From the NCBI GenBank assembly GCA_016199585.1, contig JACQGM010000364.1, forward strand, positions 1-42,402: a stretch of DNA of 42,402 bases, in the 5' to 3' direction. A program made the position numbers and the translations under genes. Positions 58 to 33,065 of the stretch are shown here, piece after piece; the first letter of the stretch is position 1, and each line of letters starts with the position of its first letter. This DNA comes from Armatimonadota bacterium (lineage in GTDB: Bacteria; Armatimonadota; JAAZEB01). The notes under the pieces were generated by a model. It did no database searches. It saw only the letters and a program-made list of their open reading frames with translations, and was not told where the DNA came from.

Positions 58-93
58 CTGTGTTCGTTTCACGACCTGGAGTACTGAAGACCG

Positions 94-3395: not shown

Positions 3396-4340
3396 TCAGC
3401 CCCCGGGGGTGCCCCGCGTGCCGCTTGGCCTCTCAGCCACCACTTCCTCTGCGGAAGCGGCCACGGCCGCGCGGGCGATCCACCGGTCCAGGGCGGCCCC
3501 GTCGGTGCAGGCGAGGATGCGCGCCCGCGCCTCCCTGTCCACGGCAATCCCGCGCGCGGCGAGGACCGCCAGCACCGCCTCGGCCCTCGCCTCAGCTCTC
3601 CCCTCCGCCCTCCCTCTGGCTTCCCGGGCGGCACCGTAGTCGCGCGCCTGCTGGATCTCGTCCATCACCTTCCGGTAGGCCTCCATCTCCAACCGCGAGA
3701 ACGTGGCTTCGTTCGCCAACTGCACCGCCTCCCGGTGCGGCCCCGGGGGCAGGTCGGCCGGCATCTCGGTCAGCTCCGGCGCGTGGACGAACAGCCAGGC
3801 CCACAGGTCCGCCCCGCCGCTCGGCCGACCCTCCGGCAGCTTCGACAACTCCAGGAAGGCGTATTGCACTTGCAGGACCTCCTGGTTGCCGGAGGCCCGC
3901 TCCGTCATGTTCCAGCGGCTGAGCATCGGCACCCGCGGCAGCACGGCGGCGTCCTGTTCGGCATCCGGCCAGAGGGCGAAGTCGCAGATGGAGATGACCA
4001 CTACGTCTGCCAGCCTGGCGTACGACTCCCCTGCCTGGAGCTGGTCAACGTATGCCTTGCAGGCGTTGTAGACGACTCGGTTGACGAAGCCGGGCACGTG
4101 GAGCAGCTGCATCTCGACGACGAAGGTAGTGCCGGAGCGGTCGCGGCAGCGGACGTCGAGGATGGAGAGCTTGGCCCCGGCCACCAGGGGGAGCTGTTCG
4201 CTCGGCAGGTAATCGATGACCTCGATGGTCTGGTCGCCGCGCCGGTCCAGGAGGTTGTTGAGGAGGCCCCGGAGGATCTCCGGGTGGCCGGCGAAGATGC
4301 GGCGGAAGACGAAGTCGTTCTTCAGGTCGGCGAAAGGCAT
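3396..4340 (-). CDS. Rpn/YhgA-like PD-(D/E)XK recombination-promoting nuclease (putative transposase family) with a DUF4351-like C-terminal tail
   Basis: 314-aa ORF. The N-terminus MPFADLKNDFVFRRIFAGHPEILRGLLNNLL matches my memory of the Rpn / TIGR01784 family. The C-terminal Arg/Ala-rich helix region resembles DUF4351. An SD-like GAGGTGAG lies upstream of the ATG at 4340. Confidence 0.8.
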   Translation of the reverse strand: MPFADLKNDFVFRRIFAGHPEILRGLLNNLLDRRGDQTIEVIDYLPSEQLPLVAGAKLSILDVRCRDRSGTTFVVEMQLLHVPGFVNRVVYNACKAYVDQLQAGESYARLADVVVISICDFALWPDAEQDAAVLPRVPMLSRWNMTERASGNQEVLQVQYAFLELSKLPEGRPSGGADLWAWLFVHAPELTEMPADLPPGPHREAVQLANEATFSRLEMEAYRKVMDEIQQARDYGAAREARGRAEGRAEARAEAVLAVLAARGIAVDREARARILACTDGAALDRWIARAAVAASAEEVVAERPSGTRGTPGG

Positions 4341-4363
4341 GGCTCGCTCACCTCGCTGAGGGT

Positions 4364-4369
4364 AGTATA
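4364..4369 (-). promoter_or_regulatory. Candidate -10 hexamer TATACT (minus strand) upstream of the Rpn gene
   Basis: Plus-strand AGTATA at 4364-4369 reads TATACT on the minus strand, 23 nt upstream of the ATG at 4340. It is a local AT-rich spot in GC-rich DNA. No clear -35 element. Confidence 0.35.
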
Positions 4370-4406
4370 GCGGGAAAGGGGCTTGGGCGCAAGGGGGGCG
4401 TGTTCC

Positions 4407-4436
4407 CCACAGCCCTGGGGCGCCCCCGGGCTGTGG
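4407..4436. terminator. 30-nt GC-rich near-perfect palindrome downstream of the 4443..5090 gene
   Basis: CCACAGCCCTGGGGC|GCCCCCGGGCTGTGG. The two halves are reverse complements except for one position. It sits 7 nt after the stop of the minus-strand gene. No U-tract. Confidence 0.5.
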
Positions 4437-4442
4437 GCCGCG

Positions 4443-5566: not shown

Positions 5567-10345
<4,779 letters not shown>

Positions 10346-13240: not shown

Positions 13241-13659
13241 GGATGTGCCTCCTATCGTCCGAGTGTCACGGACACTTCTGCTTCGATGGGGAGGTTCGAC
13301 GTGCAGCGGCGTTGCCCTGTCGGTTGCGGAGGCAGCACCCATTTCGCTGGCGGTATCGGCGGCAGGCAGCCGATGGCGCGTTCTCCCCGGTGACGATCCG
13401 AAACGGGCTCGCAGGCTCGGCACGCGGAAGGAAGGCAGCGGCGCGCGCCGAATAGTGGCGGCGATCCAGACACGTCGTCGGGCCTGAAGGCGGCCTGCCC
13501 GGCGTCAGGGGCACACCCCTGCGCCGGGGCACCGCAGGCAAGTGTAACGCACGGTAGTAGAAGCGTGATGAGAACCATACGGGCGTACTGCGGACGCGGC
13601 GGCCAGGCACTACGGTCCCCGCCGCTGCCGGCGCTCGTCGGTGCGGGAGGGGTAGCGCA

Positions 13660-17584: not shown

Positions 17585-17754
17585 GCGGCTGCCGGGCCTG
17601 GCCGGTCCCCACCCACGGCGACCTGACCGGGGGGCGATGGCACAAGGAAGAACGCGGCGGACCCGGAACCTTCCTCCTGGCGCGGCTCCCGTGGGGCCGA
17701 CGCCGGGAGCTCGGGGGTTCCCCCGGGATCCGAGCGTGAAGGGAATCCGAAGCA

Positions 17755-19554
17755 ATGAAGCAGTTGGAATGGCTCGGGAGAGCCTCCCTGGTCGCCCTGG
17801 GGTCGGTCGCGTGGACGGCCGCGGCCGCACCTGGGCCCGGCGCGGCGGATGGGGCCGCCCCCTCCAGCAGCGCACAGGTGTCGGATGCTCGTCTCGCGGA
17901 GCGAATCTACCACCCCGTCGCCTCCTGGCGCCTTTCGGGCGCGGAGGGCGACGCGGGGCTGGCCAAAGCCATCGCCGAGCTGCGCCGGCTGAAGGCCCTC
18001 GGCTTCACCGGGGTGGTTCTCCGAAACGAGCCGCAGTTGGCCTTGCCGGGCATCCTGGGCGACGCCGCCTACCGGGCGCGCCTGCGCCAGCTCGGTGAGA
18101 AGGCCGCGCGACTGGGAATCGACGTGATTCCGCACGTGATGAACTTCGGCAACGGCCAGTCGCTCCTCGCCCACGACCCCAATCTCGCGGAGGGCTTCCC
18201 GGTCAAGGACGCGCTCTTCGTGGTGAAGGGCCGGGAAGCGACTCTAGTGCCGGATCTACCGCTGGCGCTCGCCGATCCGGGCTTCGAAGCGCCCGAGGGA
18301 AACCGCTTCCCCGGCTGGATGGCGAACGCCGGCATGGAGGGGAAGGCCGTTCTGTCCGACACGGACGTGCGCCACGGCGGCGCGTCCTCGGTGCGCTTCG
18401 AGGTGGCGGCCGCCCCGGGGCCGCAGAACAACGTGCAGTTGTCGCAGCCGCTCCCGCTGACGCCCTTCCGGCTCTACCGGCTGTCGATCTGGATCAAGAG
18501 TGAGGGCCTGGATCCGAAAGCGGAGGTGACGGTCGAGCTTCAGAACGGCGAGCGGCGCCTCCACTTCGGCGGGCTGAGAGCCGAGAACATCCAGGGGGTG
18601 GCACCGACGCAGGACTGGACGCGCCATGTGCTGGTTTTCAACAGCCTGGCCGGCGGCACGGGAAGCCTGGGGCTGCGCGTCCGGCACAGCCCGCAAGGGA
18701 AGGTGTGGTTCGACGACCTGGCGGTTGAGGAAGTCGGGATGCTGAACATCCTGCGCCGTCCGGGGTGTCCGCTCACGGTGAAGGGGGAGGACGGCACGCT
18801 CTACGAGGAGGGGCGCGACTTCACGCCGGCGAAGGACCCCAGGCTGAACCGGCTGCACGCCTGGGGTGGATGGAGCCTCTCGCACGAGCCGCCCGCCCTG
18901 GAGCTGACCGCCGGGTCCCGGCTGCGAGAAGGACAGCGGCTGCGGGTGAGCTTCTACCACGCGGTGCCGGTCTACGGCCACCAGGTGGCCCTCTGCATGA
19001 GCTGTCCGGAAACCTACGAGCTCTTCGCCAGGGGCGTCAAGGAGCTGGAGGAGCTGCTGCGCCCTGTCGGGTACCACATCAACGTCGGTGAGTGTCGCTC
19101 CGCCAACTGGGATGCCGACTGCCAGCGGAAGGGGCTTCCCCTGGCGCAACTCCTCGCGTGGAGCGTGAAGGAGCGGATGCGACTCATCCGGGAGATCAAC
19201 CCCCGGGCGCGCATCTACGGATGGTCCGACATGCTGGACCCCTACCACAACGCGCGCGACAACTACTACCTCTGCAACGGCACCCTCGTGGGCGGGGCGG
19301 AGGCGGCGCCGAAGGACCTGATCATCCTCAACTGGAACATCTCCTCGGGTGGCGAGGGCGAGGAGAAGGCACGCAGCCCGCGCTTCTTCGCGAACCTCGG
19401 TTACCGCCAACTGCTCGTCAACTACGGGAAGCCCGTCCGCGAGTGGCTGGATGGCAACCCGGGCGTGCCGGGGATCAGCGGCGTCTACCAGTTCGCCTTC
19501 GAGGAGCCGGAGGTGTTCGCCGGTGCGGTGTGGGGGGCCGGCGCGAAGCCGTAG
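17755..19554 (+). CDS. Secreted protein with a CBM4_9-like carbohydrate-binding module embedded in a putative glycoside-hydrolase-like scaffold
   Basis: Signal peptide [27 protein letters not shown]. The central segment [16 protein letters not shown]...[11 protein letters not shown]...[11 protein letters not shown] has the classic CBM4_9 pattern (NGGFE..W ... Y.ls.W.k ... iDDv.l). The flanks are of unknown family. Confidence 0.7.
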
Positions 19555-22187: not shown

Positions 22188-22212
22188 CGGTTAGCTCTTT
22201 CGGCGCTTCCTA

Positions 22213-22221
22213 TGGTATAAT
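22213..22221 (+). promoter_or_regulatory. Extended -10 promoter TGGTATAAT, placed so that the transcript would start at or next to the ATG (leaderless)
   Basis: TATAAT at 22216-22221 is preceded by TGg. Only 6 nt (AAACCG) separate it from the ATG at 22228, and there is no SD. Confidence 0.55.
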
Positions 22222-22227
22222 AAACCG

Positions 22228-23652
22228 ATGAGCGGATGGGGCGCGAGAGTTCTGGTGTTGGGGTGGACCTGCGCGCTCCTGCTCGCCGGGGCGAGCCGGG
22301 GGACCGCAGCCGAGGAGGTGGTCGGCCTCAGCGAGGTGACGAAGCACCGGGCGCCACTGGAGCCGGGCCAGCGCCTGGTGATCCGCCACTCCTACGGCGC
22401 CGTGCGCCTCAGCGGCGTGGACCAGCCGGAGGTGAACGTGTGCGCCCAGCGGCACGTGCGCGGCGTGAGCCTCCAGGCCGTGCGCTCGTACCTGAAGGCG
22501 CTGGCGACCAGCGTGCAGCCGATGGGCGACCGGGTGGAGATCGAGACGCGCCGGCCCGGAGGCGATCCGAGGTTCCTGACCCAGACCACGGTGGACCTGG
22601 ACATCACGCTGCCGCGCGGCACACCGGTGGAGCTGAACAGCAGCTTCGGCGACGTGGATGCCGAGGGGATCGGCGCGCTGCGCGCCACGGTTCCCTGGGG
22701 CGCCATCAGCGTGCGCAAGATCGCCGGCGACGTGAATCTGGAGGGAAAGGCCGGCAAGGTAACGGTGGCCGATGTGGCCGGCGACCTCACCGTCGCGCAC
22801 TCCATGCAGGACGTGGACGCGAGCCGGATCGGGGGGAGCGTGACGATCCGCAACCAGTTCGGGCAGATCCGCGTGCAGGGGGTCGGCGGGCGCGCGGTGC
22901 TCGCCAACCGCGGCGGCCCGATCGCGTTGATGAACGTCGGGGGCGGCGCTCAGATCACCTGCCAGACCGGCCAGGTTCAGGTGAGCCGGGTGCAGGGCGG
23001 CCTGACGGTGACGAACGCCGATGAGAGCGTCTCCATCTCGGAAGTGCAGGGCGTCACGGTCATCGAGGCGAGCAACGGCAACGTGATTGCCAGGCAGGTG
23101 TCCGGCGACCTGAAGATTGACAACCGTTACGGCGTGGTGGACATCGCCACGGTGACCGGGAACGTGACGGTCAAGCACGGCAACCAGCGGCTCCGGGTGA
23201 GGGGCGTGAAGGGATCAGCGGCGTTGAGCAACAGCCACGGCGCCATTGACGTGGATGGCGTCGCCGGGGACTGCAATATCCACAACCAGTTCGCCTCGGT
23301 GACCGTCCACCGCGTCTATGGCGCCCTGGAGGTGTTCAACGCCTGGGGACTGGTGCGGGCCGACCTGCCGGCGCCGCCCGCGCGGGGGGAGGCCGCGCCC
23401 TGGAAACTGAAGACGAACAACAGCAACATCGTGGTCGGCGTGCCGGAGAAGACCGGGTGCGCGCTGAGCGTAGAGGTGATCTCCGGCGCCATCGAGTCGC
23501 AGTTCCCGGTCGAAGTGCAGCGCGCCGGCAACGTGCAGTCGGCGCAGTGGGCCATCAACGGGGGTGGCCGCCCGGTGGACGTGGTGGTGGATCTCGGCAT
23601 GGCGCAGGTGCAGAAGCGTCCGGCCGCTGCGCCGCGTCCGGCCGGGAATTGA
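22228..23652 (+). CDS. DUF4097-family beta-strand repeat protein (LiaG/YvlB-like putative adhesin), secreted
   Basis: A signal peptide is followed by many ~20-aa repeats of the type G.V.V....G.v.....G.I.v (for example GDVNLEGKAGKVTVADVAGDLTV, GSVTIRNQFGQIRVQGVGG), characteristic of DUF4097. Confidence 0.85.
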   Translation: MSGWGARVLVLGWTCALLLAGASRGTAAEEVVGLSEVTKHRAPLEPGQRLVIRHSYGAVRLSGVDQPEVNVCAQRHVRGVSLQAVRSYLKALATSVQPMGDRVEIETRRPGGDPRFLTQTTVDLDITLPRGTPVELNSSFGDVDAEGIGALRATVPWGAISVRKIAGDVNLEGKAGKVTVADVAGDLTVAHSMQDVDASRIGGSVTIRNQFGQIRVQGVGGRAVLANRGGPIALMNVGGGAQITCQTGQVQVSRVQGGLTVTNADESVSISEVQGVTVIEASNGNVIARQVSGDLKIDNRYGVVDIATVTGNVTVKHGNQRLRVRGVKGSAALSNSHGAIDVDGVAGDCNIHNQFASVTVHRVYGALEVFNAWGLVRADLPAPPARGEAAPWKLKTNNSNIVVGVPEKTGCALSVEVISGAIESQFPVEVQRAGNVQSAQWAINGGGRPVDVVVDLGMAQVQKRPAAAPRPAGN

Positions 23653-23667
23653 GCAGGGAGACGCCCG

Positions 23668-24300
23668 ATGGACCTGGACGTCGCCGTGAATGAGGCCATG
23701 GTGGCAAGCACCGCCATCGAGCGGCGGTGCGCGCCCGACACGGCCATCCCGGACGAGGACCTCCGGCTCTCCTTCGGCGAGCTCACCGACAAGTACTACC
23801 GCCGCATCTACAACCTCATCTGCTACCAGGTGGGCGACCCGGACGAGGCGGCCGACCTGACCCAGGAGGTGTTCGTGAAGGCGTTCCGCGCCTTCCCCGC
23901 GTTCCGGGGCGAGGCGAGGGTCTCCACCTGGCTGTGGCGGATCGCCATCAACCTCTGCAAGAGCAGCTACCAAAAGCGCGCGCGCCAGGAACACCTCTTC
24001 CCCTTCTCCCTCGACGCCGAGGTCAGCACCAACGAGGGCGAGGTCAGCCGCGAGGCGCCGGACTGGTCGGTCTGCCCCGAGCATATCGCCGAGGTGAAGG
24101 AACTGCGGGTCCAGGTCCGGCGCGCCATCCGGTCGCTGCCGGATCTCTACCGCAACGCCATCGTCCTGTGCGACCTCGAGGGGTGCTCTTACCAGGAGAT
24201 CGCCGACATCACCCAGGCGAGCGTCCAGGCCGTGAAGTCGCGCATCCATCGCGGGCGGCAGATGCTGCGCCAGAAGCTCGAACGCTATGTGCGGGGGTAG
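23668..24300 (+). CDS. ECF (group IV) RNA polymerase sigma factor
   Basis: Region 2: YYRRIYNLICYQVGDPDEAADLTQEVFVKAFRAF...WLWRIAINLC. Region 4: LPDLYRNAIVLCDLEGCSYQEIADITQASVQAVKSRIHRGR. GGGAGA lies upstream of the ATG. Confidence 0.92.
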   Translation: MDLDVAVNEAMVASTAIERRCAPDTAIPDEDLRLSFGELTDKYYRRIYNLICYQVGDPDEAADLTQEVFVKAFRAFPAFRGEARVSTWLWRIAINLCKSSYQKRARQEHLFPFSLDAEVSTNEGEVSREAPDWSVCPEHIAEVKELRVQVRRAIRSLPDLYRNAIVLCDLEGCSYQEIADITQASVQAVKSRIHRGRQMLRQKLERYVRG

Positions 24301-24324
24301 AGGTTTGGGAAGGACCGTGCCCGG

Positions 24325-24843
24325 ATGGCGTTCCGTGTGGTGCTGGAGAGGCTGTACCCGGACATGAAGGAGGCCACCGTCGGGCGGTGGCTGAAGGCGG
24401 AAGGTGAGGCGGTGGCCGAGGGGGATCCGATCGCCGAGCTCATCACCGACAAGGTGACATTCGCGTTGGAGTCACCCGGGGCGGGGCGGCTGCGGCGCAT
24501 CTACGCACGCGAGAAGAGCGTGCTGCCGATCGGGTGTACCCTGGCGGTGCTGGCGTCCCCGGAGGAGGCGCTCCCGGACATCGAAGCCGAGAACCGGGCG
24601 CTCATCGCGGCCCGGGAGGCGGAAGTCGCCCGCGGATTGCCGGCACCGCGTAGGGGCGGACCGCGTGTCCGCCCGGCGCTCGTGGCCGGCGTCGCCGGGC
24701 CGGGCCGGGCCGACGGGGTACGCGCCACTCCCTCGGCCCGGCGTCTGGCCCGTGAGCGCGGCATCGATTTGGCGCGGGTGCCCCGCCCCGAGCGCGGACC
24801 GATCACCGAGCGGGATGTAGAGGCGTTCATCAGTGGCAGGTAA
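24325..24843 (+). CDS. Lipoyl-domain + peripheral-subunit-binding-domain protein lacking an acyltransferase catalytic domain (E2-arm-like)
   Basis: The N-terminus has EATVGRWLKAEGEAVAEGDPIAELITDKVTFALESPGAGRL, with the TDK lipoyl-lysine motif. After an Ala/Pro linker comes ATPSARRLARERGIDLARV...GPITERDVEAF, a PSBD signature. The ORF ends there at 172 aa. Confidence 0.8.
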   Translation: MAFRVVLERLYPDMKEATVGRWLKAEGEAVAEGDPIAELITDKVTFALESPGAGRLRRIYAREKSVLPIGCTLAVLASPEEALPDIEAENRALIAAREAEVARGLPAPRRGGPRVRPALVAGVAGPGRADGVRATPSARRLARERGIDLARVPRPERGPITERDVEAFISGR

Positions 24844-26047
24844 TCAGCGGGTGGTCGTCACCGGCATCGGGGCCGTGTGCTGCCTCGGGCTCTCGGTGCC
24901 CGAGTTCTGGGAGGGGCTGTGCGCGGGCCGATCCGGCATCGGGCCGATCGCGCGTTTCGACACGACCGGCCTGCGCAATCCGTGCGCCGGTGAGATCAAA
25001 CATCCCGAGGCGCTCCGGCTTCCCGCGGGCGCCGACCCCGAGGACCTGGCCGTGCGCTTCGCCCTGGCGGCGGCGCGCGAAGCCGTCGCCGATGCCGCCC
25101 TCCCCCAAGGGGGCGACCCGGGCCGCCGGGGCATCGTCTTCTCCACCAACTTCGGCGGCGCGCACGCCTGGGAGCGCTTCGCCACCGCCTGGCACACCGA
25201 CCCGGCGCAGGTGCGCTCCGCGGATCTGCTGCGCTTCTCCTTCGAGGATGCCGTCGCCATCGCCGCCACCGCGCTGCGCTTCCTCGGCCCGCGCGGCACC
25301 CTCTCTCTCTCCTGTTCCTCGGGCGCTGCGTCCGTCGCCTGGGCGATGGATACCATCCGCGCCGGGCGCGCCGATGTCATGCTGGCCGGCGGGCACGACG
25401 CCCTCAGCCTCTCCTCTCTGGCCGGCCTGAGCGCCCTGCGCACCGTCACCGCCGAGCAGATCCGCCCCTTCGACAAGAACCGCAGCGGCACCCTCTTCGG
25501 CGAGGGCGCCGGGATGCTGGTGGTCGAGGCGCGCGACCACGCCGTCGCTCGCGGCGCCCGGATCTACGGGGAGGTGTGCGGCGCCGCCGTCAACAACAAC
25601 GCCTACCACGTCACCGCCCCGGACAAGCAGGGCGAAGGTCTGGCGGCCGCGCTGCGCGCCGCGCTGGGAGATGCCGAGGTGCCCCCGGAGGCGGTGGACT
25701 ACGTGAACGCCCATGCCACCGGCACGAAGTACCACGACGCGGTGGAGACGGCGGCGATCAAGGCGGTGCTGGGCGCGCGCGCCGGGGAGATCCCGGTCAG
25801 CTCCATCAAAGCGGCCACGGCACACCCGATGGCCGCCGCCGGCTCCCTGGAGGCGATCGCCAGCCTCCTCGCCCTGCGCGACGGCATCGTGCCGCCCACC
25901 TTGAACTACGAGACGCCCGACCCCGCGTGCGACCTGGACTGCGTGCCGAACATCGCCCGGCGAACATCGCTGCGGTGCGTGGTCTCCCTCTCCTCGGGCA
26001 TCGGCGGCAACAACGCCGCCCTCGTGCTGCGAAAGGACGAGCCGTGA
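24833..26047 (+). CDS. Beta-ketoacyl synthase (KAS I/II, FabF-like) with an intact Cys-His-His triad
   Basis: The GTG start overlaps the upstream gene by 11 nt. RVVVTGIGAV...; active-site LSCSSGAAS (Cys); NAYHVTAP and VNAHATGT (two His); C-terminal GGNNAALVL. Confidence 0.9.
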   Translation: MAGNQRVVVTGIGAVCCLGLSVPEFWEGLCAGRSGIGPIARFDTTGLRNPCAGEIKHPEALRLPAGADPEDLAVRFALAAAREAVADAALPQGGDPGRRGIVFSTNFGGAHAWERFATAWHTDPAQVRSADLLRFSFEDAVAIAATALRFLGPRGTLSLSCSSGAASVAWAMDTIRAGRADVMLAGGHDALSLSSLAGLSALRTVTAEQIRPFDKNRSGTLFGEGAGMLVVEARDHAVARGARIYGEVCGAAVNNNAYHVTAPDKQGEGLAAALRAALGDAEVPPEAVDYVNAHATGTKYHDAVETAAIKAVLGARAGEIPVSSIKAATAHPMAAAGSLEAIASLLALRDGIVPPTLNYETPDPACDLDCVPNIARRTSLRCVVSLSSGIGGNNAALVLRKDEP

Positions 26048-27219
26048 GCGTGGTCATCACCGGCACCGGCGCTCTCTCGGCCATCGGCTGCGGCCCGGCG
26101 TTCGCCTCCGCCCTGGCGGGATGCACGCCGGGCATCGCCGAAGTCACCGGCTTCGATCCAGGCGATGCGCCCTCGGTGCTCGCCGCCGAGGTGCCCCACT
26201 TCTCCATCGAGGAGTATTTGACGAGCGCGAAGACCTACCTGGATCGCTCCTCGGCCCTTGCTCTGGCGGCGGGCGCCCTGGCGCTGCGCGACGCGGGCGT
26301 CATAGTGGCTCCCGGGGAAGGGCAGCGCGCCGGTCTTTCCTTCGGCACCGCCTACGGCTGCCTGGAGACGATGGGCGGCTTCTGGGCGGGCGTGCAGGAG
26401 AAAGGCGCCCGCCTGGCCAGCTCGCTCCTCTTCACCCACTCCTACGCCAACACGCCCGTGAGCCTGGCCTCCATCGAGTTCAACCTCGCCGGGCCGCACG
26501 GCTGCTTCTGCGCGGGCGCCGCCTCCGGGGGGCACGCCCTGGCCGACGCCGTGGCGCAGGTGGCCGCCGGCCGCGCGGACGTGATGCTCGCCGGCGGGTG
26601 CGAGGCGCTCTCGCCCATCCTCTACGGGGGACTATCCGGCGCCGGCGTTCTCTCGCCGGGGGATGACGGCCCGGAGGGCCTGCGCCCCTTCGCGGCGTCC
26701 CGCAACGGCACCGTGCTGGGCGAAGGCGCCGCCATGCTCGTCGTCGAACCAGAAGGCGTGGCCGCGCGACGCGGAGTCCGGGTGCGCGCCCGTGTGCTCG
26801 GCGTCGGCCCGGGGGGCGGTGGGGCCGTCGGCGCCGAAGCGGCGATGCGCGCCGCCCTGGCGGATGCCGGCGGGGGACCCGGGGAGGTGGATGCCGTGTT
26901 CGCGGCGGCGAATGGCTCCCCCGAGGGGGATGCCGCCGAGGCGGGGGCGCTGGAGAGCGTCTTCGGGGGACGGTGGATCCCGGTGGTCGCCCTGAAGGCG
27001 ATGGTCGGGGAGACGCTGGGGGCTTCCGGGGCCCTGGCGGCGGCCGCCGCCGTACACGCCCTGGAGGAGGGCCTCTTGCCCGCCGCTCCCGGGATGGAAG
27101 CTCCCGAGTTCGCCCTCGACCTCGTGCGCGCCCCCCGGCGCGCTTCTCTGCGGCGCGTGCTCGTGAACAGCTTCGATGCGCGCGGCGGGTGCGTCAGCCT
27201 CTTGCTCGGGGCGGCGTGA
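26044..27219 (+). CDS. Ketosynthase-like partner lacking the catalytic triad (chain-length-factor-like)
   Basis: GTGA overlap with the KS stop (26044-26047). An ungapped alignment to the upstream KS over GP...GRADVMLAGG places Ala where the nucleophilic Cys should be (FCAGAASGG versus LSCSSGAAS). The His positions read ...GGGAVG... and AAANGSP. Confidence 0.85.
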   Translation: MSVVITGTGALSAIGCGPAFASALAGCTPGIAEVTGFDPGDAPSVLAAEVPHFSIEEYLTSAKTYLDRSSALALAAGALALRDAGVIVAPGEGQRAGLSFGTAYGCLETMGGFWAGVQEKGARLASSLLFTHSYANTPVSLASIEFNLAGPHGCFCAGAASGGHALADAVAQVAAGRADVMLAGGCEALSPILYGGLSGAGVLSPGDDGPEGLRPFAASRNGTVLGEGAAMLVVEPEGVAARRGVRVRARVLGVGPGGGGAVGAEAAMRAALADAGGGPGEVDAVFAAANGSPEGDAAEAGALESVFGGRWIPVVALKAMVGETLGASGALAAAAAVHALEEGLLPAAPGMEAPEFALDLVRAPRRASLRRVLVNSFDARGGCVSLLLGAA

Positions 27220-27221
27220 AC

Positions 27222-27287
27222 GCCCGGCGCGGGGCGGAACCCGCGCCCTACGGGATGCCCGGCGCGGGGCCGAACCCGCGCCCTACG
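27222..27287. repeat. Two tandem copies (35-bp period) of a REP-like GC hairpin, GCCCGGCGCGGGGC(G/C)GAACCCGCGCCCTACG
   Basis: Copies at 27222-27252 and 27257-27287. Each contains GGCGCGGG / CCCGCGCC arms (27226-33 / 27240-47 and 27261-68 / 27275-82) followed by CTACG. They sit right after the KS-like gene stop and may act as a terminator. Confidence 0.8.
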
Positions 27288-27307
27288 ATTTCGGCGAAGA
27301 GGAGAGC

Positions 27308-28339
27308 ATGGACCAGGAGGTCAGAGTAGAGCACGGGGCGCTGGTCGCCGCGATCCGGGAGGTGCTGGAGGGCGCGGGCGTGCCGGCGCCGGTGAGCCGT
27401 GTGGAGGCGGAGGTGACCGCCGAGGCTGACCTGCTCGGCGTGCCGTCGCACGGCGTGCGCATGGTGCCGGCGCTGGTGAAGGCGATCCGCGAGGGACGGG
27501 CGACCCCCGACCCGCAAGTGCGGATCGTGCGCGAGCGGGGCGCCACCTGTGTCCTGGACTGCGACAACGGGCCGGGGCGCTACGTCTCCGTCCTGGGGAT
27601 GCGGCACGCGGTCGGGCGCGCGCGGGAGGCGGGCGTCGGGGTGTGTCTCGCCCGGCGGACGACGCACTGGGGCCGGGCGCACGCCTACGCCTGGCGGGCG
27701 GCGCAGGCCGGGATGATCGGGGTGTGTGCCACGAACGCCATCCCGAACATGCTCGCGTTCGGGTCCTCCGGCCGCCTGGTGGGAAACAACCCCTTGGCGA
27801 TCGCGGTGCCCGCCGGGGAAGGGCGCGACCCGGTGGTGCTGGACATGGCGATGAGCCAGGCCGCCCTGGGCAAGGTCGGCACCTACCTGCGCGAGGGGAA
27901 GAAGGCGCCCCCCGGGTGGGGTCTGGATGCCGATGGACGGCCGACCGACGACCCGGCGACGATCCTGGCCAGCCGGAAGATCCTCCCCTTCGGCGGCCAC
28001 AAGGGCGCCGGCCTCGGCGTGATGATCGAGCTGCTCACCGGCGCGCTCTCGGGCGGCCTCCTCGCCCACGAGATGGCCCGGAGCGACGCCAGCGGCCTCG
28101 ACCGTGAGGCGACCAAGCTCTTCCTGGCGCTCGATCCGGCGGCCTTCCTGGACCCGGAGCACTTCTGCCGCCGGGTGCGCGACTCGCTCACCTTCCTCCA
28201 GACCGCCGAGCCGGGGCTCACGGTTCTCTATCCCGGCGAGCGGGGCTGGCAGGTCAGAGACCGCTATCTCGCCGAGGGGATCCCAATCCCGACCGACATC
28301 ATCGCCGAGCTGCGAGCGTTGGGGGCTTCGCCGGGGTAG
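27308..28339 (+). CDS. Ldh_2-family (malate / L-lactate / ureidoglycolate-type) NAD(P)H-dependent oxidoreductase
   Basis: Start at the ATG at 27308, with GAGGAGAG upstream. The translation has LLGVPSHGV.R......I, ...NNPLAIAVP..., ...DMAMSQAALGKV and ...PFGGHKGAGLG..IELL.G.LSG, typical of the type-2 malate/lactate dehydrogenase family. Confidence 0.85.
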   Translation: MDQEVRVEHGALVAAIREVLEGAGVPAPVSRVEAEVTAEADLLGVPSHGVRMVPALVKAIREGRATPDPQVRIVRERGATCVLDCDNGPGRYVSVLGMRHAVGRAREAGVGVCLARRTTHWGRAHAYAWRAAQAGMIGVCATNAIPNMLAFGSSGRLVGNNPLAIAVPAGEGRDPVVLDMAMSQAALGKVGTYLREGKKAPPGWGLDADGRPTDDPATILASRKILPFGGHKGAGLGVMIELLTGALSGGLLAHEMARSDASGLDREATKLFLALDPAAFLDPEHFCRRVRDSLTFLQTAEPGLTVLYPGERGWQVRDRYLAEGIPIPTDIIAELRALGASPG

Positions 28340-28365
28340 GACCGGGATCGCTGTGGGGGTAGATC

Positions 28366-28896
28366 ATGAACACTCTGGTAGTTTGCGCGGCGGCGTCGGG
28401 AACGACGTTCGCCGCCGAGGCCGAGGAAGCGCCCCGCCTGGAAGTCGGCGACTGCGCGCCCGACTTCCGGGCGAGCGCCTCGGATGGCAAGGAGTACACT
28501 CTGGCGCAGTTCCGCGGCCGGTCGGCCGTCGTTATCGCCTGGTATCCCCGGGCAATGACCGGCGGCTGAACGCGGGAGATGAACTCTCTCCGTGATGAGA
28601 TGAGTTTCCTCTCGCAGTTCAACGTGCAGGTGTTCGGCGCCAGCACCGACCCGGTGGAAGCCAACCGGGAGTTCGCGGAACGCCAGGGCTACCCGTTCCC
28701 CCTCCTCTCCGACCCCGACGGGAGGGTGGCGAAGGCTTTCGGGGTTCTCAACGCCAAGGGCACGGCCGCCCAGCGCTGGACCTTCGTCATTGACGACCAG
28801 GGCATCATCCGCCACATTGACCGCAAGGTGAAGACAGACACCCACGGCAAGGACCTGGCCGAGGCGCTGGGCGCGCTCGGGATGCCGAAGCGGTAG
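28366..28896 (+). CDS. AhpE/Prx-like peroxiredoxin with an in-frame TGA (28567-28569) at the peroxidatic-Cys position; candidate selenoprotein (otherwise a nonsense pseudogene)
   Basis: ORFs 28366..28569 and 28579..28896 are in the same frame, separated only by TGA + ACG CGG GAG. The joined product reads ...VVIAWYPRAMTGG[TGA]TREMNSLRDEMSFL...VFGASTDP...PFPLLSDPDG.VAKAFGV. This parallels the Prx active-site block FPLAFTG(V/I)C..EL..LRD. There is an N-terminal signal-like peptide. Confidence 0.6.
28573..28592 (+). promoter_or_regulatory. Candidate SECIS-like hairpin 3 nt downstream of the in-frame TGA
   Basis: CGGGAGA-UGAAC-UCUC(U)CCG forms 7 bp with one bulged U and a 5-nt loop with G at the second position. 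It can be extended by G-U and C-G pairs (28571-28594). Position and size are compatible with bacterial SECIS elements, but this was not evaluated with a model. Confidence 0.3.
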
Positions 28897-29990: not shown

Positions 29991-30818
29991 CTAGACTCGC
30001 GGCCCGCTCGCCACGAAGGCATCTATCAAGGCGCGGGCGATGCTCAACTTGCCGGGGAGTCCCGGCAGGTTGCCCGCGCCGAACCAGTCCGCCTCCAGCA
30101 CCTCCACGCCATCCACGCGGATCTCGCCCCCCGCGTGCTCGGCGGTGAAGCCGAGCATGAGCGAGTTCGGGAAGGGCCACGGCTGGCTGCCGAAGTAGCG
30201 GAGATTCCGCACCTCGATCCCCGTCTCCTCGCGGATCTCGCGGCGGATGCACGCCTCCAGCGACTCCCCCGTCTCCACGAAGCCCGCGAGCACGCTGAAC
30301 ATTCCCGGCGCGAAGCGCGGGCTGCGCGCCAGCAGGATCCGATCCTCGCGCCGCACCGCCACGATCACCGCCGGGGCGATCTGCGGGTAGTAGACCTGCC
30401 CGCACGCGGCGCACGCCCGGGCGCGCTCGTCGCGCTTCAGCGCCAGCGGCTTCCCGCAGCGGCCGCAGTAGCGGTGCGCCAGGTCCCAGTGGGCGAGGTG
30501 CGCGGCGCGGGCGGCCACGGCGTAGTGGTCCTCCGGCAGCACGCCGAAGAGCTCGCGCAGGCCCGCGAAGCGATGGTCGGGGGGGAGCGCCAGTGGTGGC
30601 GCATCGAACCCGGCGGCATGGCAGGGAACCCCGTCCAGGACCCCGAGGTGGTGCAGCGTGTCCGGCCGCAGCCCGAGCGCCGCCGGGCCATCCGCCCGTG
30701 GCACGGCCGGCGTCATGCCCGGCACCCCTTCCTGCACGAGGATCTGGCCCCCGTGAAAGAGGAACCACCACCCGGCCGCATCCGCCGCCGCCGGCCCTAC
30801 TCCCGAGACGAAACCCAT
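29991..30818 (-). CDS. nudC: NADH pyrophosphatase (NudC-type Nudix hydrolase with zinc ribbon)
   Basis: Start at the ATG at 30818, with GGGGGAG 5 nt upstream. CGRCG...CAACG zinc ribbon, Nudix box GFVETGESLEACIRREIREETGI, and SQPWPFPNS typical of NudC. Confidence 0.85.
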   Translation of the reverse strand: MGFVSGVGPAAADAAGWWFLFHGGQILVQEGVPGMTPAVPRADGPAALGLRPDTLHHLGVLDGVPCHAAGFDAPPLALPPDHRFAGLRELFGVLPEDHYAVAARAAHLAHWDLAHRYCGRCGKPLALKRDERARACAACGQVYYPQIAPAVIVAVRREDRILLARSPRFAPGMFSVLAGFVETGESLEACIRREIREETGIEVRNLRYFGSQPWPFPNSLMLGFTAEHAGGEIRVDGVEVLEADWFGAGNLPGLPGKLSIARALIDAFVASGPRV

Positions 30819-30851
30819 GCGCGCTCCCCCTCGCCGCGTCGCTTCCGGGGG

Positions 30852-31510
30852 AAGGATTCGCGGTGCGGGGGGGAGGATCCTGTATGGGAGAGGGGCGGGG
30901 GGGCGGCGCTGGACGACCACCACACGTCCACACCTGTAGCGGAAGCCCGACGGCGATGCTTCGGCTCGGAGCCTCCCAAGAAACTTGCGGCCAACCAGCA
31001 CCGTTTCGCCCGATTCGCCGCAGCCCCGACTCTGTCATCCTGAGCCGAAGGCGAAGGATCTCCCCCGGACGACCATCACGCGTCCGCACCTGTAGCGAAA
31101 GCCCGGGGGAGATGCTTCGGCTCGGAGCCTCAGCATGACTAGTGCGCGGGCTGGGGATGGTTGTGTCCGGGCAGGGGCAAGACGCGCGAGCCCGTTTCTT
31201 CCCCTGCCACCCCGGGGCGGCCCCGGGTGAGCGGCTCCTAAGAAACTGGCGGGCGACCAGCACCGTTTCGGCTAATTCGCTGCACCCGCGACTCTGTCAC
31301 CCTGAGCCGCTGAGGCGAAGGGTCTCCGCCCCGAGAGCCACCACAGGTCTGAACCGGTAGAGGAACCCCGGCGGAGATGCTTCGGCTCGGAGCCTCAGCA
31401 TGACCGGTGCGGGGGCTTGAGATGGTTGTCCCCGGGCACCGGTACGCCGCACGCGCCTGTTTCTTCCCCTGCCACCCCGGGGCCGCCCCGGGTCACTTGC
31501 TCAGCATGAC
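30852..31510. repeat. Array of a composite ~262-bp repeat: long imperfect hairpin elements (H2 31034-31139, H3 31296-31404, degenerate H1 ~30852-30980) separated by conserved linker segments
   Basis: Read directly. Elements of the form GTCA(T/C)CCTGAGCCG..GGCGAAGG.TCTCC... / ...GGAGATGCTTCGGCTCGGAGCCTCAGCATGAC recur. The linkers CTCC(C/T)AAGAAACT.GCGG.C.ACCAGCACCGTTTCG... and ...GTTTCTTCCCCTGCCACCCCGGGGC.GCCCCGGGT.A are also duplicated. The ORFs crossing it look spurious. Confidence 0.85.
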
Positions 31511-31610: not shown

Positions 31611-33065
31611 CTACGACCGCCGCTCCCCCACCCACCGCTCCGCGAAGGCAATCGCCTCCTCGCGGCTCCTCACTTCCCCGACGGCGACGGCCTCCTCCAG
31701 GGCTTCCAGCAGTTCCCCCAGCTCCCGCCCAGGCTTCAGGCCGGTGGCGCGCATGAGCTCGCGACCGTCGGCAGGGACCACCGGCCGCGCCACGGGCGCG
31801 CCCTCGAAGTGCAGCCGCAGCATCTCCACCACGAAGCGCCGGTGCCGCTCGATCTGCTCCGGCGCTGCCCAGGGGCCGCGCGCCGCCAGGCGATCCGCCA
31901 GCGAGAGGATGAGCGTCTCGACCGCCGAGTCGCCCGCCTCGCGGAAGAACCGGTAGCGCTGTCGAGGATCCAGCGGCTCCTCCAGGGAGAGCCAGCCGGG
32001 GGAGAGGTGGCCGGCCACCATTCGCGCGACAGCCTTTGTCTCCCGGCCGCCGAGGCGCAGCCGGCGGCAGATGCCCGCGGCCACCGCGGCGCCCGCCTCG
32101 TCGTGACCCCGGAAGGTGATCACTCCGCCCGGAGTGACATCGCGTGTCTGTGGCTTGGCGACGTCGTGCAAGAGGGCGGCGAAGAGGAACAGCTCCCGCC
32201 GCGCGCGCGGTGGGGTGATCGGCTGAGAGAGCGCCCGGTGTGCCGGCTCGAACACGTCCTCCGGCAGCTCCTCACCGACGAGCAGACGCTCGGTCTGGCG
32301 CACTACCTCGAGGGTGTGCTCCCAGGCGTCCAGGTGGTGGTTGGCGTTCTGCTCCAGGCCCTTGAGCGGCATCAGCTCTGGAAGGATGACTCCGAGCATC
32401 CCCATCTCATCCAGGCGGCGCACCGACTCCGGACAGCCCGGCGCGCCCAGGAGCAGGAAGAGCTCGTCACGCACGCGCTCGGCAGCCGCGCCCGCCAGGA
32501 GGCCGGCCTGGCTGCGCGCCAGCGCCTCGGTCTCCGGCACGATGGTGAACCCCAGAACCGCCGCCATCCGCACCGCGCGCAGCAGCCGGATCGGGTCGGC
32601 GGTGAACACATCGGGCCGGACGTGCCGCACCCTGCCCGCGCTCAGGTCATCCAGCCCGCCGGCGGGGTCGATCAGGCGGCATGTTGAACACATTATTCTA
32701 TAATGTATTATAGAATAATACATTTGATCGTGCTGCAGCGGCAGCGCCATCGCGTTGATCGAGAAGTCACGCCGCAGGAGGTCCTCTTCCAGGGGCTCGG
32801 TGAGCGGGAGCACGTCCACCGGGATGCCGGGGGCACCGGAGCGAGGCACGACCCGGTAGGCGCGCATCTCGCGGTGGAGGCAGAAGGGCGCCCCGCCGGT
32901 GCGCCGGGCGATGCGCTCGGCCAGGCGCCGGGGGTTGCCATCGGTGACGAGGTCGAGGTCTTTGGTCGGACGGCCCAGGAGCAGGTCGCGCACGCACCCG
33001 CCCACGAGGTAGATGCGCTCGCCGGGGCGCGGCAGGTCGGCGAGGGATCGCAGCAGTTCTTCCAT
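31611..33065 (-). CDS. cca: CCA-adding enzyme / poly(A) polymerase-family tRNA nucleotidyltransferase with an HD domain
   Basis: GGCVRDLLLG...DLDL, RRDFSINAMA, ...DPIRLLRAVR and an HD motif (LLHDVAKP). The ATG at 33065 is 3 nt after the upstream gene stop. It contains the AT-rich palindrome listed separately. Confidence 0.88.
   Translation of the reverse strand: MEELLRSLADLPRPGERIYLVGGCVRDLLLGRPTKDLDLVTDGNPRRLAERIARRTGGAPFCLHREMRAYRVVPRSGAPGIPVDVLPLTEPLEEDLLRRDFSINAMALPLQHDQMYYSIIHYRIMCSTCRLIDPAGGLDDLSAGRVRHVRPDVFTADPIRLLRAVRMAAVLGFTIVPETEALARSQAGLLAGAAAERVRDELFLLLGAPGCPESVRRLDEMGMLGVILPELMPLKGLEQNANHHLDAWEHTLEVVRQTERLLVGEELPEDVFEPAHRALSQPITPPRARRELFLFAALLHDVAKPQTRDVTPGGVITFRGHDEAGAAVAAGICRRLRLGGRETKAVARMVAGHLSPGWLSLEEPLDPRQRYRFFREAGDSAVETLILSLADRLAARGPWAAPEQIERHRRFVVEMLRLHFEGAPVARPVVPADGRELMRATGLKPGRELGELLEALEEAVAVGEVRSREEAIAFAERWVGERRS
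32683..32728. repeat. AT-rich palindrome inside cca: perfect 13-bp arms ATTATTCTATAAT / ATTATAGAATAAT (32692-32704 / 32707-32719), 2-nt spacer, partly extendable
   Basis: Read directly. There are 9 G/C in the 47 nt of 32681-32727, within otherwise GC-rich DNA. The sequence is open in the cca frame, encoding QMYYSIIHYRIMCSTC. Confidence 0.95.

What the first reader, a model, noticed from the sequence alone, without database searches (positions are those of the whole stretch)
28366..28896. TGA exactly at the peroxidatic-cysteine position of an AhpE-like peroxiredoxin: candidate selenocysteine recoding
The ORFs 28366..28569 and 28579..28896 share one frame and are separated only by TGA ACG CGG GAG. 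The joined protein reads ...AVVIAWYPRAMTGG-[TGA]-TREMNSLRDEMSFL...FGASTDP...YPFPLLSDPDGRVAKAFGV. This is colinear with the Prx/AhpE active-site block (F)FPLAFTG.C..EL..LRD, so the stop codon occupies the catalytic Cys position.

Sec-for-Cys replacement at redox-active sites is the hallmark of bacterial selenoproteins. Sec-containing peroxiredoxins are known, for example PrxU of Eubacterium acidaminophilum.

A hairpin, CGGGAGA-UGAAC-UCUC(U)CCG, begins 3 nt after the TGA (28573-28592), where a bacterial SECIS would be expected. The alternative is a simple TGC/TGT to TGA nonsense mutation, giving a pseudogene or two fragments.
Basis: partly seen in the sequence, partly recalled or inferred. Interest (0 to 1): 0.68.

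Follow-up and report, generated by a model that had tools for sequence, protein, structure and literature searches.

The report
Selenocysteine peroxiredoxin gene with SECIS hairpin
The "stop" codon that seems to split this antioxidant-enzyme gene in two almost certainly encodes selenocysteine at the catalytic site, read with the help of an RNA hairpin just downstream; it is a genuine but ordinary member of an already known family of bacterial selenoproteins.

Summary
ORFs 28366-28569 and 28579-28896 share one frame and are separated by TGA 28567-28569. Joined, they give a complete 176-residue AhpC/TSA peroxiredoxin, and the TGA is the last position of the catalytic PxxxTxxC motif.

It is not a chance nonsense mutation:
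- 48 other loci from independent genomes and metagenomes carry TGA at this column; 37 carry TGC/TGT.
- A hairpin 3' of the codon is specific to the TGA loci. In them it is 92% paired with compensatory changes; in Cys loci it matches shuffled controls.
- In the window's own clade, a 23-nt hairpin core is identical in 9 of 10 loci (one loop base differs in L001), through codons that are rare in this 71% G+C genome.
- Cys homologues encoding the same peptide use other codons and lack the hairpin.
- The window's stem-loop (28572-28615, loop CGUGAU) meets all four published bacterial SECIS criteria.
- TGA ends 17 of 25 checked reading frames in the window, so the genetic code is standard.

The selA/B/C/D genes could not be checked because only this contig is available.

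Sec-peroxiredoxins with the TxxU motif have been known since 2001, so this is a new member of a known kind.

The parts
28366..28896 (+). Complete selenoprotein gene: 176 codons (ATG 28366, Sec-UGA at codon 68, TAG stop 28894-28896) encoding a BCP/PrxQ-AhpE-like peroxiredoxin.
   Evidence: one frame, single internal TGA. (PF00578 1-124/124, E 5e-36). (gap-free alignment to solved Bcp and AhpE structures). (GC3 0.90 downstream of the TGA, like the real genes around it).
28546..28569 (+). Active-site motif P61-R-A-M-T65-G-G-U68 (PxxxTxxU).
   Evidence: P61 and T65 invariant in the family alignment. The motif matches the PxxxTxxU signature given for Sec-peroxiredoxins in PMC13188914.
28567..28569 (+). 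UGA codon read as selenocysteine (U68), at the peroxidatic position.
   Evidence: The same column is TGA in 48 other loci and TGC/TGT in 37. TGA is otherwise the ordinary stop of 17 of 25 checked reading frames in the window.
28572..28615 (+). Bacterial SECIS stem-loop inside the coding sequence. Lower stem 28572-28578 (GCGGGAG) pairs with 28609-28615 (CUCUCGC). Upper stem 28581-28590 (GAACUCUCUC) pairs with 28597-28600 and 28602-28607 (GAGA, GAGUUU), with U28601 bulged.
   Evidence: dG -20.7 kcal/mol, z -3.85, 0 of 200 shuffles as stable; the core AACUCUCUCCGUGAUGAGAUGAG (28582-28604) is identical in 9 of 10 clade loci, with one loop base changed in L001; synonymous codon identity 91% in the core against 60% elsewhere. 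Cys homologues with the same peptide use other codons and do not fold, and the core uses codons that are rare in this genome.
28591..28596 (+). Apical loop CGUGAU, with G-U at loop positions 2-3; the presumed SelB contact (inferred). It begins 21 nt after the UGA.
   Evidence: The main Sec group has the loop CGUGA/CGGGA at the same distance from the UGA. This fits the published rule of a G in the first two loop positions, followed by G or U, and a 16-37 nt spacing (PMC13188914).
28774..28776 (+). Conserved catalytic Arg (R137, in the RWTF motif), downstream of the TGA.
   Evidence: Invariant in alignment A1. It aligns with the Arg of ANRGTF in AhpE. Since the C-terminal part holds an essential active-site residue, neither half-ORF could work alone.
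28366..28434 (+). Short hydrophobic N-terminus (MNTLVVCAAASGTTFAAEAEEAP). Homologues have clear signal-peptide-like leaders; here the leader is shorter and has no basic n-region, so export is uncertain.
   Evidence: Alignment A1 and translations of L001 and L003. An in-frame stop at 28360-28362 rules out a longer N-terminus. No signal-peptide predictor was run; this is an inference.
27176..28339 (+). Context only: upstream same-strand Ldh_2-family (malate/L-lactate dehydrogenase-like) gene, ending 26 nt before the Prx start and possibly co-transcribed with it.
   Evidence: PF02615, E 1e-102; 26-nt gap, G-rich stretch before the ATG. Co-transcription is inferred, not shown.

Best explanation
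Positions 28366-28896 are one gene for a selenocysteine-containing thiol peroxidase of the AhpC/TSA superfamily (BCP/PrxQ-AhpE-like). During translation, the UGA at 28567-28569 is decoded as Sec rather than stop. The mRNA just downstream folds into a SECIS stem-loop (28572-28615, apical loop CGUGAU). In the established bacterial mechanism this structure is bound by the elongation factor SelB carrying Sec-tRNA(Sec), which delivers it to the ribosome paused on the UGA. The product carries Sec68 in the PxxxTxxU active site, with Thr65 and Arg137. Sec68 attacks a peroxide and becomes a selenenic acid, which is then reduced again. Most relatives have a second Cys four residues on (U-T-x-E-C) that could resolve the oxidised Sec. 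This window has Met there, so it is probably a '1-Sec' enzyme recycled directly by an external thiol reductant. Shown here: one complete Prx domain interrupted only by UGA; UGA or Cys at this column across the family; a SECIS hairpin specific to the Sec loci. Inferred from established knowledge: SelB-dependent decoding, peroxidase chemistry, and the nature of the reductant.
For: Gene integrity: a single frame and the full PF00578 domain; the active-site column identified against solved structures; P61, T65 and R137 invariant; GC3 of 0.86 and 0.88 on the two sides of the TGA. Sec/Cys pairs: TGA at the same column in L001, L003 and L009 and in L090-L095, 49 TGA loci in total including the window, against 37 TGC/TGT loci. 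At least 15 public protein entries are C-terminal-only fragments of about 98 aa that start just after this column, and five contigs show adjacent N- and C-terminal Prx half-genes. SECIS in the main Sec group (39 loci): stem nt 18-24 with 30-36 is 92.3% paired, 6 of 7 pairs show changes on both sides, and the covariation score is 0.405 against 0.151 for shuffles (0 of 500 reach it), with slid controls 29-63% paired. The same columns in 34 Cys loci are 66% paired with covariation equal to shuffles (229 of 500). SECIS in the window's clade: a 23-nt core identical in 9 of 10 loci, with one loop base changed in L001. Synonymous codon identity is 230/252 in codons +5 to +12 against 1377/2287 elsewhere. 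Cys homologues L097 and L098 encode the same NSLRDE peptide with TCC CTG/CTC CGC GAC, and their core folds at only -1.2 to -3.9 kcal/mol, against -6.2 to -7.9 in Sec loci. In the window the core uses TCT, CGT, GAT and AGT, which are 4.3%, 6.5%, 21.5% and 0.7% of their codon families in this genome (joint probability about 4e-6). The window's hairpin has dG -20.7 kcal/mol and z -3.85, and it meets all four criteria of the published bSECIS model. TGA is the normal stop in 17 of 25 checked reading frames in the window. The family is established in the literature: Prx, PF00578, TxxU/PxxxTxxU.
Against: No selA, selB, selD or tRNA-Sec is found on the 42.4-kb contig. The rest of the genome is not available, so the organism's ability to decode Sec is unproven. 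Within the window's own clade the upper stem never varies, so it gives no covariation of its own. A covariance model trained on the main Sec group scores the window's site at only 7.5 bits (E about 5) and does not separate Sec from Cys loci. A plain MFE comparison of Sec against Cys loci is only weakly different (p = 0.016). The window lacks the +4 Cys found in most relatives, and its N-terminal leader is atypical. No Rfam SECIS family matches. There is no direct evidence of selenium incorporation.
Confidence: 0.9

Rival explanations
1. Relic selenoprotein gene. The gene descends from a true Sec-peroxiredoxin, but this organism has lost the Sec-insertion machinery, or the gene was recently acquired by a host that cannot decode Sec. 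Translation then stops at codon 68 and the gene does nothing.
For: No sel genes or tRNA-Sec on the contig. The +4 Cys is absent and the leader is shortened relative to homologues. The closest syntenic relative examined has no Prx at the corresponding place, so the gene may be mobile or dispensable.
Against: Both halves are intact, with no frameshift or second stop, and keep genome-typical GC3. The hairpin is the most stable in its clade and keeps four rare codons against strong GC3 pressure, which decay would erase quickly. All catalytic residues are kept. A 42-kb contig would not be expected to contain the sel genes anyway.
Confidence: 0.06
2. Simple pseudogene: a private TGC/TGT-to-TGA nonsense mutation in a Cys-peroxiredoxin.
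For: TGC or TGT to TGA is a single-base change, and gene callers split the gene in two.
Against: The same TGA is found in 48 other loci from independent samples, including all 9 other members of the window's clade. A Sec-specific hairpin lies downstream. The hairpin core uses codons that are rare in this genome. Protein conservation is equally strong on both sides of the TGA.
Confidence: 0.02
3. Sequencing or assembly error at 28569, or genome-wide reassignment of TGA (to Trp or Gly).
For: One homologue, P0006, has TGG (Trp) at this column. Read data are not available for the window.
Against: Ten clade members from different samples and sources all have TGA. TGA terminates 17 of 25 checked reading frames in the window, and there is no other within-gene TGA. 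Trp or Gly at the peroxidatic position would inactivate the enzyme.
Confidence: 0.01
4. Two separate functional small proteins: a 67-aa N-terminal fragment and a 105-aa C-terminal fragment restarting at ATG 28579.
For: An in-frame ATG lies 9 nt after the TGA, and public gene calls report such fragments.
Against: The thioredoxin-fold Prx domain spans both pieces. The N-terminal piece would end one residue short of the catalytic residue, and the C-terminal piece holds the catalytic Arg but no peroxidatic residue. In relatives the called restart Met is a different one, M76 in window numbering, which lies inside the SECIS core, and the window's M72 is Cys in most homologues. So the restart codon is not a conserved feature.
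Confidence: 0.01

Closest known systems
Sec-containing peroxiredoxin (Prx) family of bacterial selenoproteomes (PF00578 / COG1225, TxxU or PxxxTxxU motif; Zhang & Gladyshev surveys, PMC1088965, PMC1794560, PMC13188914)
   Same: AhpC/TSA domain; UGA at the peroxidatic position of PxxxTxxC; widespread Cys homologues; a bSECIS hairpin immediately 3' of the UGA inside the ORF; abundant in environmental metagenomes.
   Different: This clade falls below the cut-off of every NCBIfam peroxiredoxin model, so annotation pipelines split it into two fragments. Most members have a signal-peptide-like leader and a Cys at +4 (U-T-x-E-C). The window's copy has Met at +4. The nearest named relatives are MAGs labelled Armatimonadota, a phylum not mentioned in the 2026 review. 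I could not compare it directly with the review's reference sequence.
PrxU of Eubacterium acidaminophilum (NCBIfam NF040737; Sohling et al. 2001, cited in PMC13188914)
   Same: The first experimentally shown peroxiredoxin with Sec at the peroxidatic position; the same superfamily and the same catalytic logic.
   Different: The window's protein scores 66.8 bits against the PrxU cut-off of 270, so it is not a member. The PrxU profile is longer (233 positions) and of a different Prx subfamily. The SECIS sequences are unrelated.
BCP/PrxQ peroxiredoxins (E. coli Bcp model PRK09437; Sulfolobus Bcp structure 3drn)
   Same: Best NCBIfam hit (103.5 bits) and best solved-structure hit (E 5.8e-25), with similar length and domain layout.
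   Different: It is below the equivalog cut-off of 140. It has Sec instead of Cys. The second Cys in relatives is at +4, whereas from memory E. coli Bcp has it at +5, and the window has none.
Mycobacterium tuberculosis AhpE (1xvw and related entries), a 1-Cys peroxiredoxin
   Same: The active-site block is colinear (FPLAFTGIC aligned with YPRAMTGGU), E 1.5e-21. Like AhpE, the window's protein has no nearby resolving Cys.
   Different: AhpE has Cys, not Sec. It is a weaker match than the Bcp structure. From memory, AhpE is cytoplasmic and recycled by mycoredoxin/mycothiol; the reductant here is unknown.
E. coli fdhF SECIS (the textbook bacterial SECIS)
   Same: A stem-loop inside the coding sequence directly after the UGA, with G-U in the apical loop as the presumed SelB contact and a bulged U in the upper stem.
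   Different: There is no sequence similarity. From memory, the fdhF loop G-U is at nt 23-24 from the U of UGA; here it is at nt 26-27. The bulged U here is on the 3' side of the stem.

Membership tests
Sec-containing peroxiredoxin (Prx; PF00578, PxxxTxxU) | AhpC/TSA (PF00578) domain spanning the UGA | tested here: met
   PF00578 positions 1-124 of 124, E 5.1e-36, 123.8 bits against a cut-off of 26.
Sec-containing peroxiredoxin (Prx; PF00578, PxxxTxxU) | In-frame UGA at the peroxidatic position of the PxxxTxxC motif | tested here: met
   P61-RAM-T65-GG-U68 aligns with the peroxidatic-Cys column of AhpE and Bcp structures.
Sec-containing peroxiredoxin (Prx; PF00578, PxxxTxxU) | Homologues with Cys, and other homologues with UGA, at the same column | tested here: met
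   49 TGA loci (window included) against 37 TGC/TGT loci.
Sec-containing peroxiredoxin (Prx; PF00578, PxxxTxxU) | Bacterial SECIS 3' of the UGA: loop 3-9 nt, upper stem 4-16 bp, G in the first two loop positions, 16-37 nt spacing, MFE of -7.5 kcal/mol or lower (PMC13188914) | tested here: met
   loop CGUGAU (6 nt), 10-bp upper stem with one bulge, G at loop position 2 followed by U, 21-nt spacing, -20.7 kcal/mol. Sec-specific conservation and covariation.
Sec-containing peroxiredoxin (Prx; PF00578, PxxxTxxU) | Sec-decoding trait in the same genome (selA, selB, selC, selD) | not testable with these tools
   Only this 42.4-kb contig is available, and it holds none of them.
Sec-containing peroxiredoxin (Prx; PF00578, PxxxTxxU) | Selenium actually incorporated; peroxidase activity | not testable with these tools
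   This needs 75Se labelling or mass spectrometry, and an enzyme assay.
PrxU (NCBIfam NF040737) | Score at or above the curated cut-off of the equivalog model | tested here: not met
   66.8 bits against a cut-off of 270.
Thiol peroxidase Prx-SUH (NCBIfam NF045827) | Score at or above the curated cut-off | tested here: not met
   27.5 bits against 298. Its listed motif is CxxU, not TxxU (PMC13188914).
BCP/PrxQ (NCBIfam NF006960 PRK09437; NF053650) | Score at or above the curated cut-off of the equivalog model | tested here: not met
   103.5 bits against 140, and 79.4 against 260. This is the closest subfamily, but the protein is not an equivalog.
   AhpE structures score E 1.5e-21, and a Sulfolobus Bcp scores better (5.8e-25). 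No dedicated AhpE profile was available.

The most novel reading that the evidence does not exclude
The window's clade may be an as-yet undescribed, probably exported subfamily of Sec-peroxiredoxins. Its marks are the UTxECNSLRDEMS block and its own near-invariant SECIS core, CUCUCUC-CGUGAU-GAGAUGAG. It is common in environmental metagenomes and occurs in lineages (MAGs labelled Armatimonadota and Actinomycetota) not usually listed as Sec users. Within it, the window's copy would be a '1-Sec' variant that has dropped the neighbouring Cys, suggesting that Sec removes the need for a resolving residue: in this sample, all five loci lacking the +4 Cys are Sec forms.
Probability: 0.3. Interest if true: 0.35.

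Novelty: new member of a known kind. Interest (0 to 1): 0.25.

Why it matters
The main value is for annotation. Public gene calls split this gene and dozens of its relatives into two "peroxiredoxin" fragments, and no NCBIfam model reaches its cut-off. Recognising them as single selenoprotein genes corrects the record. It also marks the host lineage as a probable Sec user and gives a clean SECIS example. Within one family there are two stem variants with the loop in the same place. Cys homologues that encode the same peptide with different codons serve as an unusually direct control for selection at the RNA level. The biology itself, Sec replacing the peroxidatic Cys of a Prx, has been known since 2001 and is one of the commonest bacterial selenoprotein types.

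Tried and rejected
1. It can be drawn, but it is not the MFE structure. Its 5' arm lies in a variable region of the clade alignment, and its loop would lie only 10 nt from the UGA, outside the 16-37 nt rule. Rejected in favour of 28572-28615.

2. Cross-clade covariance model. R1 was built from the 39 main-group Sec loci and searched against the window, its clade and the Cys loci. Cys loci scored 10-48 bits, the window's clade 19-27, and the window itself 7.5 (E about 5). Shared coding sequence dominates the model, so the test cannot tell Sec from Cys loci.

3. Rfam. There were no matches at gathering thresholds over the whole window and only noise at E up to 10 around the site.

4. Plain MFE comparison of 50 nt after the codon. 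Sec loci averaged -16.2 and Cys loci -14.4 kcal/mol (p = 0.016), which is too weak alone. It was replaced by the pair-count analysis.

5. Covariation inside the window's clade. All 7 consensus pairs are invariant, so there is no signal. It was replaced by the synonymous-site and codon-usage tests.

6. Search for Sec machinery in the window. There are no tRNAs, and the Pfam survey of 24 reading frames found no SelA, SelB or SelD domain.

7. Orthologue by synteny. A relative's contig (L099, GluRS 76% identical) keeps the GluRS to KS-KS gene order but has no Ldh_2 or Prx. Uninformative.

8. Cys30 as a replacement resolving Cys. It is unique to the window among 86 loci, and other loci lacking the +4 Cys have no other Cys. 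There is no support, so it remains speculation.

9. Variant genetic code. Rejected, since TGA is the stop of 17 of 25 checked reading frames in the window.

10. Structure prediction was not run. The tool returns no coordinates, so it could not measure the Cys30-Sec68 distance, and domain completeness was already shown.
Full report
**1. The observation**

The window is 42,402 bases and 70.6% G+C. On the + strand an ATG at 28366 follows an in-frame TAG at 28360-28362. The frame runs to TGA at 28567-28569, continues as ACG CGG GAG ATG, and ends at TAG 28894-28896. The two listed ORFs, 28366-28569 and 28579-28896, therefore share one frame and are interrupted only by that TGA, which is codon 68.

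With Cys substituted at that codon, the 176-residue product covers the whole Pfam AhpC-TSA model (positions 1-124 of 124, E 5e-36). It aligns without gaps across the active-site block of solved peroxiredoxins: a Sulfolobus Bcp (3drn, E 5.8e-25) and M. tuberculosis AhpE (1xvw, E 1.5e-21, where FFPLAFTGIC aligns with AWYPRAMTGGC). The TGA is thus the last position of the PxxxTxxC motif, here P61-RAM-T65-GG-U68. The catalytic Arg (R137, in RWTF) lies downstream of the TGA and is invariant in the family. Third-position G+C is 0.86 before and 0.88 after the TGA, like the real genes of this genome.

**2. Is it chance, error or a variant code?**

TGA is the ordinary stop of 17 of the 25 checked reading frames in the window. 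A scan for in-frame TGAs flanked by coding-like sequence on both sides found only this one inside a gene; the other three hits are junctions between adjacent genes. This rules out a reassigned TGA.

**3. Homologues**

A protein search returned full-length relatives with Cys at the column. P0001 (70% identical, labelled Armatimonadota) reads TGGCT, and P0003 and P0004 read TRGCT. It also returned at least 15 entries of about 98 aa that cover only the C-terminal 56% of the query at 60-70% identity and begin just after the column.

At the DNA level, two MAG contigs (L001, L003) have TGA at exactly the same column. Contigs carrying the C-terminal fragments show adjacent N- and C-terminal Prx half-genes, again separated by TGA. 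One metagenome scan with the family alignment gave 80 more loci.

Over all loci held, the column is TGA in 49 (window included) and TGC/TGT in 37. The scan keeps only the best 80 of 555 candidates, so this ratio does not estimate the true frequency. It does show that UGA/Cys alternation at this catalytic column is a property of the family, which is the standard signature of a selenoprotein.

**4. The RNA element**

The minimum-energy fold of 28567-28615 is a stem-loop beginning 2 nt after the UGA:
- **Lower stem:** GCGGGAG (28572-28578) pairs with CUCUCGC (28609-28615).
- **Upper stem:** GAACUCUCUC (28581-28590) pairs with GAGA and GAGUUU (28597-28600 and 28602-28607), with U28601 bulged.
- **Apical loop:** CGUGAU (28591-28596).
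- **Stability:** dG is -20.7 kcal/mol, z is -3.85, and none of 200 dinucleotide shuffles folds as well.

That one is not the MFE fold, uses a non-conserved 5' arm, and would put its loop only 10 nt from the UGA.

The published bacterial SECIS model (PMC13188914, read) sets four requirements, and the window's element meets all of them:

| Requirement | Window's element |
|---|---|
| Apical loop of 3-9 nt | 6 nt |
| Upper stem of 4-16 bp | 10 bp |
| G in the first two loop positions, usually followed by G or U | C-G-U |
| 16-37 nt between UGA and loop | 21 nt |
| MFE of -7.5 kcal/mol or lower | -20.7 kcal/mol |

**5. Is the hairpin tied to the UGA?**

There are three independent lines of evidence.

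(a) Main Sec group. These are 39 loci, none from the window's clade. A stem at nt 18-24 with 30-36 from the U of UGA, with loop CGUGA or CGGGA starting at nt 25, is 92.3% paired. Six of its seven pairs show changes on both sides (32 cells). The covariation score is 0.405 against 0.151 for shuffles (0 of 500 reach it), and slid controls are 29-63% paired. The same columns in 34 Cys loci are 66% paired, with covariation equal to the shuffled value (229 of 500 reach it).

(b) The window's clade. These are 10 loci from different samples, with the peptide UTxECNSLRDEMS. The 23-nt core AACUCUCUCCGUGAUGAGAUGAG is identical in nine, and L001 differs at one loop base. It forms the same kind of hairpin with the loop starting at the same nucleotide. 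Because the stem does not vary, it gives no covariation. Synonymous codon identity, however, is 230/252 (91%) in codons +5 to +12, against 1377/2287 (60%) elsewhere in the gene.

(c) Matched Cys controls. The closest Cys homologues encode the same peptide with different codons. L097 has AAC TCC CTG CGC GAC GAG AAG, and L098 has AAC TCC CTC CGC GAC GAG AAG. Their core folds at only -1.2 to -3.9 kcal/mol. The nine Sec loci folded here give -6.2 to -7.9 with AAC TCT CTC CGT GAT GAG ATG AG; L001 has CGG in place of CGT, and L090 was not folded. In the window's own genes TCT, CGT, GAT and AGT are 4.3%, 6.5%, 21.5% and 0.7% of their codon families, yet all four are used in the core (joint probability about 4e-6).

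Together these results show selection on the RNA sequence and structure only where the codon is UGA.

**6. What could not be shown**

The contig contains no tRNA, no Rfam match, and no SelA, SelB or SelD domain among 24 reading frames surveyed.

The closest named relatives of the window's GluRS (79%) and of the Prx (70%) are MAGs labelled Armatimonadota. L001 and L003 are labelled Actinomycetota. These are bin labels, so the taxonomy is tentative.

A syntenic contig from a relative keeps the GluRS to KS-KS gene order but has no Ldh_2 or Prx. A covariance model trained on the main group failed to separate Sec from Cys loci and scored the window's site poorly, because shared coding sequence dominates it.

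**7. Mechanism**

The most likely account has three steps.
- **Decoding (inferred):** the SECIS hairpin recruits SelB carrying Sec-tRNA(Sec), so that UGA68 is read as Sec. This follows from the established bacterial mechanism.
- **Catalysis (inferred):** Sec68, activated by Thr65 and Arg137 in the Prx active site, reduces a peroxide and is oxidised to selenenic acid. This follows from family chemistry.
- **Recycling (open):** most relatives have a Cys four residues later (U-T-x-E-C) that could form a selenenylsulfide. The window has Met there. Four other Sec loci also lack this Cys, and three of them have no other Cys in the mature protein. A '1-Sec' mode with direct reduction by an external thiol is therefore the best guess. 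The window's unusual Cys30 is unique among 86 loci and has no support as a resolving residue.

Homologues carry signal-peptide-like leaders. The window's leader is shorter and lacks a basic n-region, so where the protein ends up in the cell is uncertain.

**8. Comparison with what is known**

Sec-containing peroxiredoxin (PF00578, TxxU/PxxxTxxU) is an established bacterial selenoprotein family:
- It was first demonstrated as PrxU in Eubacterium acidaminophilum (Sohling 2001, cited in PMC13188914).
- It was found in 12 selenoprotein sequences among genomes surveyed in 2006, with repeated Cys-to-Sec conversions inferred (PMC1794560).

The window's gene meets every sequence-level criterion of that family. 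It is not a member of the PrxU, Prx-SUH or Bcp equivalog models, since its scores are far below their cut-offs. It is therefore a new member, possibly of an unnamed subfamily, of a known kind.

**9. Verdict**

Confidence that this is a genuine selenoprotein gene with a functional SECIS is about 0.9. The main residual doubt is the unverifiable Sec machinery. Interest is low to moderate: the result is a useful annotation fix and a neat illustration of SECIS constraint, but it is not new biology.

Noticed in passing
window 30894-31502: Three degenerate direct copies (70-82% identity, spacing 156 and 265 nt) of a unit of about 80-175 nt fill the gap between the NudC-like gene (29991-31001, -) and the CCA/poly(A)-polymerase-family gene (31611-33065, -). 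Their nature is unknown.
   Followed up: partly
P0006 (homologue from a 926-bp JGI contig): This 58%-identical homologue has Trp (TGG) at the Sec/Cys column (TGGWTQEC), one base away from TGA. It could be an inactivated former selenoprotein gene, a sequencing error, or a gene-caller artefact.
   Followed up: no
window 28579-28581 (M72); loci L028, L035, L047, L069: All five family loci that lack the Cys four residues after the catalytic position are Sec forms (0 of 37 Cys loci in this sample, although protein P0005 is a Cys form with Leu there). Three of them have no other Cys in the mature protein. This hints that Sec forms can dispense with a resolving Cys.
   Followed up: partly
window 28453-28455 (Cys30 in VGDCAPDF): A Cys at this position is unique to the window among 86 family loci; others have K, P, A, M, R and so on. 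It is probably incidental, and a role as an alternative resolving Cys is untested.
   Followed up: partly
window 23653-27219 and L099 14204-17980: A gene block is syntenic between the window and a relative's contig: an ECF sigma factor, a small lipoyl/E3-binding-domain protein and two tandem ketoacyl-synthase genes (a KS/CLF-like pair), downstream of GluRS and an anti-sigma-like gene. Function not examined.
   Followed up: no
window 3396-4442 (-): A PD-(D/E)XK nuclease-family transposase gene (PF12784, E 4e-28) lies next to the AcrB-type efflux pump gene at 88-3309.
   Followed up: no
window 8339-10345, 13561-15762, 17740-19554, 22195-23652 (+): Four long reading frames with high GC3 (486-734 codons) have no Pfam match at E of 1e-5 or better. 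The 3' part of 17740-19554 overlaps the stop-to-stop frame of the GluRS gene.
   Followed up: no
L009 7919-8749; L099 6066-6710 and 8243-8677: Genes with prepilin-type N-methyl plus SBP_bac_10 (DUF1559-type) domains occur on contigs of a Sec-Prx relative and of the window's GluRS relative. Together with conflicting MAG labels (Armatimonadota, Actinomycetota), this leaves the lineage's taxonomy unsettled.
   Followed up: no
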